This document shows positions 20,811 to 23,878 of a DNA stretch of 64,000 nucleotides, in pieces. The DNA is from Podarcis pityusensis (taxonomy: Eukaryota): the NCBI GenBank assembly GCA_964106645.2, contig OZ067040.1; one strand, 5' to 3'. The notes beneath the pieces were generated by a model. That model was given only the letters and a program-made list of their open reading frames with translations. It was not told the DNA's origin and did no database searches. The translations under genes were made by a program, and so were the position numbers. The stretch's first letter is position 1, and each line of letters starts with the position of its first letter.

Positions 20811-23732
20811 TCAGAGCACTCCTGACATATGGTTGTCAAGCCTCTGCTTAAAGACCTCCAAAGAAGGAGACTCCACCACACTCCTTGGCAGCAAATTCCA
20901 CTGTCGAACAGCTCTTACTGTCAGGAAGTTCTTCCTAATGTTTAGGTGGAATCTTCTTTCTTGTGGTTTGGATCCATTGCTCCGTGTCCGCTTCTCTGGA
21001 GCAGCAGAAAACAACCTTTCTCCCTCCTCTATGTGACATCCTTTTATATATTTGAACATGGCTATCATATCACCCCTTAACCTCCTCTTCTCCAGGCTAA
21101 ACATGCCCAGCTCTCTTAGCCGTTCCTCATAAGGCATCGTTTCCAGGCCTTTGACCATTTTGGTTGCCCTCCTCTGGACACGTTCCAGTTTGTCAATGTC
21201 CTTCTTGAACTGTGGTGCCCAGAACTGGACACAGTACTCCAGGTGAGGTCTGACCAGAGCAGAATACAGTGGCACTATTACTTCCCTTGATCTAGATGCT
21301 ATACTCCTATTGATGCAGCCCAGAATTGCATTGGCTTTTTTAGCTGCCGCGTCACACTGTTGGCTCATGTCAAGTTTGTGGTCAACCAAGACTCCTAGAT
21401 CCTTTTCACATGTACTGCTCTCAAGCCAGGTGTCCCCCATCTTGTATTTGTGCCTCTCATTTTTTTTGCCCAAGTGCAATACTTTACATTTCTCCCTGTT
21501 AAAATTCATCTTGTTTGTTTTGGCCCAGTTCTCTAATCTGTCAAGGTCGTTTTGAAGTGTGATCCTGTCCTCTGGGGTGTTAGCCACCCCTCCCAGTTTG
21601 GTGTCATCTGCAAATTTGATCAGGATGCCCTTGAGTCCATCATCCAAGTCGTTGATAAAGATGTTGAATAAGACCGGGCCCAAGACAGAACCCTGTGGCA
21701 CCCCACTAGTCACTCTTCTCCTGGATGAAGAGGAACCATTGATGAGCACCCTTTGGGTTCGGTCAGTCAGCCAGTTACAAATCCACTGAGTGGTAGCATA
21801 GTCAAGACCACATTTTACCAGCTTCTTTACAAGAATATCATGAGGCACCTTGTCAAATGCCTTGCTGAAATCAAGGTAGGCTACATCCACTGCGTTCCCT
21901 TCATCTACCAGGCTTGTAATTCTGTCAAAAAACGAGATCAGGTTAGTCTGACATGACTTATTTTTCAGAAAGCCATGCTGACTATTGGTGATCACAGCAT
22001 TCCTTTCTAGGTGCTCACAGACTGTTTGCTTAATGATCTGCTCCAGAATCTTCCCTGGTATTGATGTCAGACTGACTGGGCGGTAATTATTTGGGTCCTC
22101 TCTTTTCCCCTTTTTGAAAATAGGGACAACATTTGCCCTCCTCCAGTCTGCCGGGACTTCGCCTGTTCTCCAGGAATTCTCAAAGATGACTGCCAGTGGT
22201 TCTGAGATCACATCTGCCAGTTCTTTTAATACTCTTGGATGCAGTTCATCTGGCCCTGGAGACTTGAATACATCTAAACTAGCCAAGTATTCTTGTACTA
22301 TCTCCTTAGTTATTCTGGGCTGTGTTTCCTTTGCTGAATCATTTGCTCCAAATTCTTCAGGTCGGGCATTGTTTTCTTTATCGGAGAAGACTGAGGCAAA
22401 GAAGGCATTGAGGAGTTCAGCTCTTTCTGTGTCCCCTGTTTGCATTTCACCATCTTCTCCTCTGAGTGACCCCACTGTTTCTTTGTTCTTCCTTTTGCTA
22501 CGGACATACCCATAAAAGCCTTTTTTGTTGCTTTTAACCTCTCTAGCAAGCCTGAGTTCATTCTGTGCTTTAGCTTTTCTGACTTTGTGTCTACACGTGC
22601 TGGCTATTTGTTTGAATTCCTCTTTGGTGGTTTCCCCCCTTTTCCATTTTTTGTACACATCCTTTTTAAATCTTAACTCAGTTAAAAGTTCTTTAGATAG
22701 CCACCCTGGCTTCTTTAGGCACCTTCCATGTTTCTGTCTCATTGGTATTGCCTGACGTTGTGCTTTTAGTATCTCCCTCTTAACAAACTCCCAGCCATCA
22801 TGAACTCCCTTTCCTTTTAGTATTACTGCCCATGGGATCTCACCCAGCACTTCCCTAAGTTTTATGAAGTCAGCTTTCTTAAAGTCAAGAAATTGAGTCC
22901 TAGTATGCTTGGCTGCTCCTTTCCGCTGTATAGTAAACTTCAGAAGAGCATGATCACTCGCGCCTAATGATCCTTCCACTTCTACCCCACTAACCAGGTC
23001 ATCAACATTGGTTAGGACCAGATCTAAAATGGCTGTTCCTCTTGTTGCTTCTCCCACTTTCTGGACAATGACGTTGTCTGCAAGGCCAGTGAGGAATCTG
23101 TTTGACCTTATGCTCTTGGCTGAGTTTGACATCCAACAAATATCCGGGTAATTGAAGTCCCCCATTACTACTATCTCCCTTCCTTTTGCATGCTTGGCCA
23201 TCTGTTCCAGGAAGGCATCATCTATGTCCTCCGTTTGGCTTGGGGATCTATAGTAAACTCCCACAATGAGGTCACTGTTATTCTTCTCTCCCTTAATTTT
23301 GACCCAAATGCTCTCACTTTGGCTTTGAGGTTCTAAATCTTGGATCTCTTCACAGGTATACACATCCCTGACATATAACGCCACTCCTCCTCCTTTCTTG
23401 TCTGGTCTGTTTCTCTGAAATAGATTGTATCCCCCCATTATTACATTCCAATCGTGGGACTTATCCCACCAGGTTTCAGTGATGCCTATTATGTCATATT
23501 TAGTTTGCTGTACCAAGAGCTCAAGCTCATCTTGTTTATTTCCCATGCTTTGCGCATTAGTGTACAGACATTGAAGTCCATTAATCATTCCCCCGTGACT
23601 CTTATTTAAGGATTTTTTCCTCCCACCACTAGGTCTGTGTGCTGTTTGCTCCATTTGGTCTATGACATTTGGATGATCATCTTCATCAGTTGATAGACTC
23701 CTACCTTCAGGAGCACTGTCTCCCTCCCCCAC
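20811..23732 (-). CDS. CR1 ORF2: APE-type endonuclease + reverse transcriptase (973 aa, no internal stop)
   Basis: EN motifs YTNAQS, GITETW, GDFN, SDH; RT motifs [38 protein letters not shown]. Track start is GTG; first in-frame ATG is 23654; frame is open upstream to 23837. Confidence 0.95.
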
Positions 23733-23737
23733 ATTAG

Positions 23738-23878
23738 TCAGTTTAAAGCCCTCCTGATGAGGTTTCTGAGATTTTTGGCAAAAACATTTCTCCCAACCGT
23801 TGTGAGGTGCAGCCCATCGCTTGCCAGAAGTCCATCTTCAAGAAACTGCAGTCCGTGATCTAAGAATCCAAACCGTTC
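23738..23878 (-). CDS. CR1 ORF1 C-terminal remnant (SGNH/GDSL esterase-like)
   Basis: Manual translation [51 protein letters not shown] is the SGNH block-V DxxH motif typical of CR1 ORF1. Not in the ORF track. Confidence 0.88.

What the first reader, a model, noticed from the sequence alone, without database searches (positions are those of the whole stretch)
23690..23837. Candidate programmed -1 ribosomal frameshift joining CR1 ORF1 to ORF2
Seen: on the minus strand ORF1 ends AGG GCT TTA AAC TGA (stop 23740-23738). ORF2's frame is exactly -1 to it (GGC TTT AAA CTG ACT AAT GTG GGG) and is open without a stop or ATG from 23837 through the junction. The heptamer T_TTA_AAC (23747-23741) is in the correct X_XXY_YYZ phase and occupies the last ORF1 codons. 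Downstream, GGGAG (23728-23724) can pair with CUCCU (23713-23709), and loop AGAC (23721-23718) with GUCU (23698-23695), a possible H-type pseudoknot; CUCCU/AGGAG gives an alternative hairpin. Known: UUUAAAC is the coronavirus 1a/1b slippery site, and gag-pol frameshifting is typical of retroviruses and LTR elements, whereas studied LINEs (human L1, silkworm SART1) use termination-reinitiation or coupling. Inference: this CR1 may make an ORF1-ORF2 fusion (esterase-EN-RT). Caveats: the spacer of about 10-12 nt is longer than the usual 5-9, the stems are short, and an in-frame ATG at 23654 upstream of the EN domain could start ORF2 conventionally. I cannot tell whether this has been reported for CR1.
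Basis: partly seen in the sequence, partly recalled or inferred. Interest (0 to 1): 0.85.

Follow-up and report, generated by a model that had tools for sequence, protein, structure and literature searches.

The report
Frameshift site joining CR1 LINE genes
An abundant family of animal jumping genes (CR1 LINEs) keeps a virus-style slippery sequence at the very end of its first gene, which likely makes ribosomes slip back one base to produce the second, copying enzyme as a fusion protein, a possible answer to how these elements translate that gene.

Summary
The sequence is as described: U_UUA_AAC in phase, then the ORF1 stop, with ORF2 in the -1 frame, in a 5'-truncated copy of a young lizard CR1 family. 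21 of 27 junctions located without using the site (two lizard families, several bird-type lineages, one distant relative) keep TTTAAAC; the six others are differently mutated copies. The preceding codon changes amino acid but ends in T, and Leu is always TTA, while neighbouring leucines use 4-6 codons. Linker lengths (111-279 nt) keep -1 phase, and no AUG is conserved. One distant relative has U_UUU_UUA, a 12-bp hairpin and a 1004-codon ORF2 whose first AUG is codon 472. ORF1 homologs end in Leu-Asn or Gly-Asn, the latter fitting G_GGA_AAC (DNA not seen). The proposed pseudoknot is not supported; what vertebrate copies conserve is a G run 10 nt downstream with no pairing partner found. Verdict: likely programmed -1 frameshift giving an ORF1-ORF2 fusion (0.8); no translation data. 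No CR1 report in ten literature searches, but four original papers were unreadable. This scan noted the same junction before on other DNA.

The parts
20727..23879 (-). 5'-truncated CR1 LINE copy of a young family (3' end in 8-nt GATTCTAT repeats)
   Evidence: 5' boundary against full-length L002; 1191 first-look candidates for the junction in the genome; copies about 98% identical
23738..23879 (-). 3' fragment of ORF1 (end of the SGNH/GDSL esterase domain), ending Arg-Ala-Leu-Asn-stop
   Evidence: full ORF1 in L002:569-1642 hits PF13472
23741..23747 (-). slippery heptamer T_TTA_AAC (predicted -1 shift site)
23738..23740 (-). ORF1 stop codon directly 3' of the heptamer (TGA here, TAG or TAA in other lineages)
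23718..23730 (-). conserved G-rich motif; the five-G run 23730-23726 starts 10 nt after the heptamer (candidate stimulator, partner unknown)
   Evidence: GGGGG at +11..+15 in 24 of 31 vertebrate-type junctions; column counts; no conserved pairing
23565..23747 (-). stop-free -1 frame linker (61 codons) from the heptamer to the start of the endonuclease motif
   Evidence: chance of stop-free stretches
20811..23747 (-). ORF2 frame from the heptamer: 978 aa, APE endonuclease (aa 64-266) and reverse transcriptase (aa 546-762)
   Evidence: PF03372, PF14529, PF00078
23652..23654 (-). first in-frame ATG (codon 32); not conserved outside the young family
23586..23588 (-). second in-frame ATG (codon 54); shared by the two lizard families, absent at this place in bird-type and distant lineages
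   Evidence: both pairings in 1 of 18 junctions, z +0.3

Best explanation
CR1 LINEs with an esterase-type ORF1 keep a phased slippery heptamer at the end of ORF1, and ribosomes likely slip back one base there, so that a minority would skip the adjacent stop and make an ORF1-linker-endonuclease-reverse transcriptase fusion (about 1,330 aa) while most stop and release ORF1p. Shown: the heptamer, its phase, the adjacent stop, nucleotide-level conservation, the open -1 linker, the lack of a conserved AUG. Inferred: the shift itself, the fusion protein, and a fixed low ORF2p:ORF1p ratio. Inferred and weaker: slow termination at the adjacent stop and the G run at +11 act together as the stimulator, in place of the hairpin that one distant relative has at the same +11 position. 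AUGs that some lineages carry near the stop may add a second route. The window's own copy lacks the ORF1 start, so the mechanism concerns full-length copies such as L002.
For: (a) 21 of 27 in-register junctions found with a profile that omitted the last four ORF1 residues have TTTAAAC; the six others carry different one- to three-base changes. (b) In 13 chosen representatives (about 10 lineages, mean 54% nt identity upstream) codon -3 ends in T 13/13 across Ala, Cys and Ser, Leu is TTA 13/13 and Asn AAC 13/13, while Leu at -7, -10 and -22 uses 4, 6 and 4 codons; TTA is 5 of 37 Leu codons in ORF1. (c) 20 of 28 measurable linkers are in -1 phase, at lengths 111, 153, 180, 183, 189, 243, 264 and 279 nt. 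(d) AUG-less, stop-free -1 stretches of 19-86 codons in five lineages, joint shuffle chance about 9e-9. (e) First in-frame ATG falls at codon 4, 5, 23, 32, 54 or 90, or is absent before the endonuclease (L088, L116, L128). (f) In many bird-type copies and in L116 the -1 frame opens only 1-2 codons before the heptamer, which brackets the entry point. (g) L116: U_UUU_UUA, 12-bp hairpin at +11 (z -3.1), ORF2 open for 1004 codons with first Met at 472, 41% identical to the window's ORF2. (h) Of 86 distinct ORF1 tails, 32 end Leu-Asn and 9 Gly-Asn, 7 of those after Gln, which fits G_GGA_AAC. (i) Named alligator, tortoise and bird ORF2-frame proteins show Phe-Lys-Leu upstream of the endonuclease. 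(j) U_UUA_AAC and G_GGA_AAC are among the shiftiest heptamers for mammalian ribosomes (PMC5009743).
Against: No translation data. No conserved RNA structure follows the site in vertebrate lineages (z +1.6 to -1.8 in 16 junctions; no shared long-range partner), and a bare heptamer normally shifts poorly (own knowledge). The 10-nt spacer exceeds the usual 5-9 nt (PMC5009743). Seven bird-type copies have an ATG at -1 codon 4-5 and a Zootoca protein starts at codon 6; both lizard families share Met54. 8 of 28 linkers are out of phase, six from families whose other copies are in phase and two single decayed copies. The linker shows no third-position excess of differences between the lizard families (14/15/11 and 10/13/10 by codon position), so there is no sign of selection on its amino acids. 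Lineages are related, so counts are not independent events. The Gly-Asn group is largely one clade, enriched by my query, and its DNA was not seen. 45 of 86 tails end in neither dipeptide.
Confidence: 0.8

Rival explanations
1. ORF2 is made by termination and reinitiation, as described for human L1 and silkworm SART1: ribosomes stop at the ORF1 stop and restart at a nearby AUG or near-cognate codon; the heptamer and G run would serve pausing or 40S retention rather than slippage.
For: This is the mechanism reported for the two LINEs studied (PMC2881922; PMC10275272; PMC5009743: L1 initiation independent of the AUG). ATG 2 nt after the stop in six bird-type copies, overlapping the stop in L082, GTG at codon 6 in the window's family, Met at codon 6 in Zootoca P0083, shared Met54 in lizards. 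No stimulatory structure found.
Against: No start codon is shared in presence or place; L088, L116 and L128 have none before the endonuclease and the old lizard family has none near the stop; L116's first AUG is codon 472. Four out-of-frame AUGs precede the first in-frame one in the window. It does not explain fixed -1 phase, fixed TTA, the T-ending codon before it, or the switch to other slippery heptamers.
Confidence: 0.13
2. The heptamer and G run are kept for a non-translational reason (splice acceptor for an ORF2 mRNA, protein-binding or packaging site, polymerase slippage), and ORF2 is made from a separate or altered transcript.
For: Bird-type copies read CTAG at the stop, which resembles a 3' splice site; the G run is conserved at the nucleotide level with no pairing partner. 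A few database proteins run from ORF1 into the -1 frame at or near this site (P0076, P0115, P0166, P0216), showing that DNA indels or gene models cross it.
Against: The AG is missing in the window's family and in most old lizard copies (TGA, TAA). No joint with RNA-read support among the 15 best-supported of 72 joints listed for three RNA runs, and coverage is continuous over the junction (weak, reads come from both strands). A binding site would not be expected to switch among U_UUA_AAC, U_UUU_UUA and (predicted) G_GGA_AAC while keeping codon phase.
Confidence: 0.04
3. The linker is an intergenic IRES-like element that starts ORF2 at a non-AUG codon, as was speculated for non-LTR elements in general.
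For: Raised as a possibility in PMC3894237; ORF2 lacks a conserved AUG.
Against: The linker varies from 111 to 279 nt, has no conserved fold, no Rfam match, and is stop-free back to the heptamer, which an IRES would not require.
Confidence: 0.03

Closest known systems
Canonical -1 programmed frameshift sites of viruses and LTR elements (coronavirus IBV U_UUA_AAC, retroviral gag-pol U_UUU_UUA, G_GGA_AAC sites; PMC5009743)
   Same: X_XXY_YYZ heptamer in phase at the end of the abundant upstream ORF; polymerase ORF in -1 frame without its own conserved start; same heptamer letters; L116 has a downstream hairpin.
   Different: Non-LTR element; stop directly 3' of the heptamer in vertebrate lineages; no conserved stem-loop or pseudoknot in them; conserved element starts at +11, beyond the usual 5-9 nt spacer.
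Protein-stimulated frameshifting of arteriviruses (PRRSV CCCANCUCC, nsp1beta plus poly(C)-binding protein) and cardioviruses (PMC5009743)
   Same: A short unstructured homopolymer-rich motif about 11 nt 3' of the shift site; spacers of 11-14 nt are reported for these cases.
   Different: Motif here is G-rich, not C-rich; no binding protein identified; no evidence for a -2 shift; resemblance is positional only.
Dictyostelium TRE5-A and TRE3-A non-LTR retrotransposons (PMC5911963, figure legend)
   Same: APE-type LINEs with two ORFs, stated to need a -1 frameshift for ORF2.
   Different: Different clade and host; I saw only the review's statement, not the primary evidence or the site; their ORF1 type was not examined here.
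Human L1 and silkworm SART1 ORF2 translation (reinitiation or UAAUG coupling; PMC2881922, PMC3894237, PMC10275272)
   Same: Bicistronic LINE RNA; ORF2 output depends on ORF1 translation and is low.
   Different: They make a free ORF2p; CR1 shows no conserved stop-start overlap. The window's TAATG (23736-23732) has its ATG in ORF1's frame, not ORF2's.
CR1-clade LINEs with SGNH esterase ORF1 (PMC3905857, PMC4120745; chicken CR1 PMC2734521)
   Same: Domain order zinc-finger/coiled-coil region, esterase, APE endonuclease, RT; 8-nt 3' repeats.
   Different: None of the passages read mentions frameshifting ('frameshift' 0 hits in these three papers); ORF2 is treated as a separate ~95 kDa protein.

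Membership tests
CR1-clade LINE with esterase ORF1 | ORF1 with SGNH/GDSL esterase | tested here: met
   PF13472 E 1.8e-9 on L002 ORF1; homologs in lizards, snakes, turtles, birds, frogs
CR1-clade LINE with esterase ORF1 | ORF2 with APE endonuclease and RT, no RNase H | tested here: met
   PF03372, PF14529, PF00078 only
CR1-clade LINE with esterase ORF1 | 3' end in short 8-nt repeats, not poly(A) | tested here: met
   GATTCTAT repeats near 20727-20755; the feature itself is recalled
CR1-clade LINE with esterase ORF1 | RT phylogeny inside the CR1 clade | not tested
   no tree built; 41-55% ORF2 identity to the comparison loci
canonical -1 programmed ribosomal frameshift | X_XXY_YYZ heptamer in the phase of ORF1 | tested here: met
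canonical -1 programmed ribosomal frameshift | heptamer conserved at synonymous positions or replaced by other slippery heptamers | tested here: met
   L116 U_UUU_UUA; Gly-Asn tails at protein level only
canonical -1 programmed ribosomal frameshift | downstream ORF in -1 frame, open from the heptamer, without a conserved start | tested here: met
   20 of 28 linkers in phase; ATG position scattered
canonical -1 programmed ribosomal frameshift | conserved stem-loop or pseudoknot 5-9 nt downstream | tested here: not met
no conserved fold in 16 vertebrate junctions; hairpin only in L116 (at +11) and weakly L105.
canonical -1 programmed ribosomal frameshift | measured trans-frame product that depends on the heptamer | not testable with these tools
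   needs reporter, Ribo-seq or mass spectrometry
protein-stimulated frameshift (arterivirus/cardiovirus type) | conserved short motif 11-14 nt downstream | tested here: met
   GGGGG at +11..+15 in 24 of 31 vertebrate-type junctions
protein-stimulated frameshift (arterivirus/cardiovirus type) | a protein that binds the motif and raises frameshifting | not testable with these tools
   none identified
SART1-type stop-start coupling | conserved AUG overlapping or next to the ORF1 stop in ORF2's frame | tested here: not met
   present in 7 bird-type copies, absent in both lizard families, L065, L074, L075, L088, L116

The most novel reading that the evidence does not exclude
Esterase-type CR1 LINEs across animals make ORF2p only as an ORF1-ORF2 fusion by -1 frameshifting, and amniote lineages have replaced the RNA hairpin with a new kind of stimulator: a stop codon abutting the slippery site plus an unpaired G run at +11 that is read by a protein (host G-run binder or ORF1p itself) or by a G-quadruplex, making ORF2p output regulatable.
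Probability: 0.3. Interest if true: 0.9.

Novelty: new variant of a known kind. Interest (0 to 1): 0.72.

Why it matters
How ORF2 of non-LTR elements is translated is called an open question in a review of the subject (PMC3894237), and the worked examples are reinitiation. CR1 is the most abundant interspersed repeat of birds (PMC11835228). A conserved -1 frameshift would mean the active CR1 enzyme is a Gag-Pol-like fusion tethered to ORF1p, would move the true start of 'ORF2' in annotations and in 'intact CR1' screens, and would explain the variable AUG-less leader. It also supplies a natural eukaryotic shift site with no visible RNA structure, testable with one reporter.

Tried and rejected
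Pseudoknot as drawn: rejected. Local hairpin or G-quadruplex as a shared vertebrate stimulator: not found; a G-quadruplex was the best fold in 2 of 18 junctions. Long-range partner for the G run in ORF2, the 3' UTR or ORF1: none at a shared position in 12 elements. Calicivirus-type UGGGA upstream of the stop: present in the young family (about 23795-23791) only as a Gly codon, absent in the old lizard family and bird-type copies. TAATG coupling: the ATG is in the wrong frame. Counting the 12-mer GGGCTTTAAACT as copy number: 1394 hits against a reversed control of 27, but 10 of 20 fetched hits lacking a neighbouring endonuclease motif were unrelated DNA, so the control understates chance. Conservation inside the young family (heptamer 53 of 54, ATG 23654 53 of 54, CTCCT 51 of 55) is uninformative at 98% identity. 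Codon-position test on the linker: no signal. Searches for more junction DNA that gave nothing usable: prokaryote genomes, viral contigs, plasmids and phages, a degenerate ORF1 pattern in the own genome; a snake ORF1 query returned the young family again. No DNA for the Gly-Asn group was obtained. Rfam: no match. Sequencing runs: no RNA holder listed by index; raw RNA reads map on both strands and cannot isolate the element's own mRNA. Four original papers (turtle CR1 1997, SART1 2005, L1 2006, esterase/PHD 2003) were not held.
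Full report
What is in the window. On the minus strand, 23879-20727 is a 5'-truncated CR1 LINE. It keeps the last ~47 codons of ORF1 and an intact ORF2 frame (978 aa from the heptamer; APE endonuclease and RT). It belongs to a young family with over a thousand junction-bearing copies (1191 first-look candidates; 1360 hits of an endonuclease-start pattern, mostly this family in the 100 listed). Full-length copy L002 has a 357-aa ORF1 with a GDSL/SGNH esterase that is 96% identical to a Podarcis muralis UniRef entry, so the host is a lacertid lizard. The heptamer is the only phased slippery heptamer in ORF1 and sits on its last codons. Because this copy has no ORF1 start, any mechanism applies to full-length copies.

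Comparison set. Junction DNA came from an older lizard family in the same genome (51-68% endonuclease identity to the window) and from metagenome contigs. Most of the latter are bird-type by their closest named proteins; L105 and L116 are distant relatives of unknown host.

Test 1, synonymous conservation. I located ORF1 ends with a profile that left out the last four residues. Of 94 loci scanned, 36 matched, 4 ended before the junction and 5 were out of register. Of the 27 left, 21 have TTTAAAC; L067, L072, L127, L129, L140 and L150 each carry a different change. Nine of the 27 are or include near-identical young-family copies (seven loci), so the count overstates independence. In 13 representatives that I picked (about 10 lineages; the six changed copies and L116 were left out; mean upstream identity 54%), codon -3 ends in T in 13 of 13 although it codes Ala, Cys or Ser, Leu is TTA in 13 of 13 and Asn is AAC in 13 of 13. 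Control leucines at -7, -10 and -22 use 4, 6 and 4 different codons, and TTA is 5 of 37 Leu codons in ORF1. The constraint is on the nucleotides, in the pattern a slippery site needs.

Test 2, phase and open linker. With eight more junctions anchored by eye, 35 were tabulated. 28 have a measurable distance to the endonuclease motif: 20 are in -1 phase, at eight different lengths from 111 to 279 nt; 8 are not (six decayed copies of the two lizard families, plus L072 and L094). The other two frames hold up to 21 stops. AUG-less, stop-free -1 stretches of 50, 19, 58, 78 and 86 codons in five lineages have a joint shuffle chance of about 9e-9. In many bird-type copies and L116 the -1 frame is closed 1-2 codons upstream of the heptamer, so entry from ORF1 can only happen at or just before it.

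Test 3, start codons. The ATG at 23654 is confined to the young family. First in-frame ATGs fall at codon 4 (L082), 5 (six bird-type copies), 23, 32, 34, 54 or 90, or are missing before the endonuclease (L088, L116, L128). L116 is the clearest case: ORF2 is open for 1004 codons from its heptamer, 41% identical to the window's ORF2 over 928 aa, and its first Met is codon 472. Against this, AUGs near the stop recur in bird-type copies and Zootoca (P0083), and Met54 is shared by both lizard families, so reinitiation cannot be excluded as a parallel route.

Test 4, exchange among slippery sites. L116 has U_UUU_UUA at the same place, with the stop one codon later; L105 keeps U_UUA_AAC with the stop two codons later. 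Among 241 ORF1 homologs, 153 had a measurable tail, giving 86 distinct tails: 32 end Leu-Asn, 9 Gly-Asn, and no other ending occurs more than twice. Before Leu-Asn, 30 of 32 residues can have a T-ending codon (background 81%); the two exceptions are Glu, which could give G_UUA_AAC, the equine arteritis virus type (PMC5009743). Before Gly-Asn, 7 of 9 are Gln (background 3%), which fits G_GGA_AAC. This group is mostly one clade, was enriched by my query, and its DNA was not seen. The remaining 45 tails show that not all esterase-bearing elements share the site. Named proteins from alligator (P0127), tortoise (P0076) and birds (P0106, P0111, P0115, P0166) show Phe-Lys-Leu in the ORF2 frame 35-93 residues before the endonuclease, the -1 reading of the same heptamer; 8 of 62 proteins with a located endonuclease start show such a motif, most others begin downstream of it.

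Test 5, the stimulator. No vertebrate junction reached z -2. L116 has a 12-bp hairpin starting at +11 (z -3.1) and L105 a weaker stem at +10. What vertebrate-type junctions share is GGGGG at +11 to +15 (24 of 31); two of these five positions are third codon positions of the -1 frame and were G in 15 of 15 chosen junctions, so this is an RNA-level signal. I found no partner for it nearby or far away and no Rfam match. The review gives 5-9 nt as the common spacer, 11-14 nt for arterivirus and cardiovirus frameshifting, and places the PRRSV protein-binding motif 11 nt 3' of the shift site. My inference: if slippage happens with the stop in the A site, the effective spacer is 7 nt; alternatively a protein bound to the G run acts as the roadblock. 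Neither is shown.

RNA data. Three raw RNA runs of a related species label laid 948, 1118 and 1139 reads on L002; coverage is continuous across the junction, on both strands, and none of the 15 joints shown (of 72) has RNA-read support. This only weakly disfavours splicing.

Mechanism. Most ribosomes end ORF1 at the stop. A minority likely re-pair tRNA-Leu and tRNA-Asn one base back and read on through a variable, probably disordered linker into endonuclease and RT, giving a fusion of about 1,330 aa. Confidence 0.8; reinitiation 0.13; non-translational 0.04; IRES 0.03.

What is known. Ten full-text searches listed no paper proposing frameshifting for CR1. I read passages of PMC5009743 (first 300,000 of 449,034 characters searched; 'CR1' 0 hits; L1 described as unconventional initiation), PMC11835228, PMC4120745, PMC3905857, PMC2734521, PMC2881922, PMC10275272 and PMC5911963, and parts 1-2 of 3 of PMC3894237. 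PMC5911963 states in a figure legend that Dictyostelium TRE5-A and TRE3-A require a -1 frameshift; I did not see the primary data. The original CR1 descriptions of 1997, the 2003 esterase paper, the SART1 and L1 translation papers and Repbase reports could not be read and may mention the overlap or the heptamer; no supplements were consulted. The library lacks most subscription journals, so 'not in print' is not established. This scan's own notes record the same junction in a shark genome and related sites in two other genomes; these are unchecked AI notes and I count them as leads only.

Verdict. A real, deeply conserved recoding-type signal; a new variant of a known kind (-1 frameshifting in a LINE clade where it is not described in the papers I could reach, with an unusual downstream element). 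Interest 0.72.

Noticed in passing
window 20149-20752 and about 23880-23915 (+ strand): The CR1 copy appears to be inserted into the 3' end of an RTE/BovB-like element: an RTE-like ORF fragment ends at the CR1 tail and a short CAA-repeat tail resumes at the CR1 5' end. Family label is recalled; Pfam gave no hit.
   Followed up: partly
window 23926-25271 (- strand): 3' end of another LINE with a poly(A) tail and a 353-aa open frame with a Cys/His motif, L1/Tx1-like by recall; no Pfam hit at 1e-3.
   Followed up: partly
window 23660-23734 (- strand): A 24-codon mini-ORF in ORF1's frame starts 4 nt after the stop and ends 5 nt before the ATG at 23654; not conserved in other lineages.
   Followed up: partly
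L116:1472-1520: Distant CR1-like element with U_UUU_UUA, a perfect 12-bp hairpin at +11 and an intact AUG-less ORF2 front half; the best single construct for a positive test.
   Followed up: yes
proteins P0254, P0290, P0296, P0306, P0309, P0324, P0334 and relatives: An unnamed clade of esterase ORF1 proteins ending Gln-Gly-Asn; predicted G_GGA_AAC site; DNA not obtained.
   Followed up: partly
proteins P0006, P0010, P0209: ORF1s ending Glu-Leu-Asn, which cannot have the U_UUA_AAC form; predicted G_UUA_AAC or A_UUA_AAC.
   Followed up: no
protein P0043: A vertebrate-type CR1 ORF1 filed under Klebsiella pneumoniae on a 2.9 kb contig, probably host contamination.
   Followed up: no
G000 genome-wide: The young family has many copies with an unbroken ORF1 (most of the 119 scored), suggesting recent or ongoing activity.
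   Followed up: no
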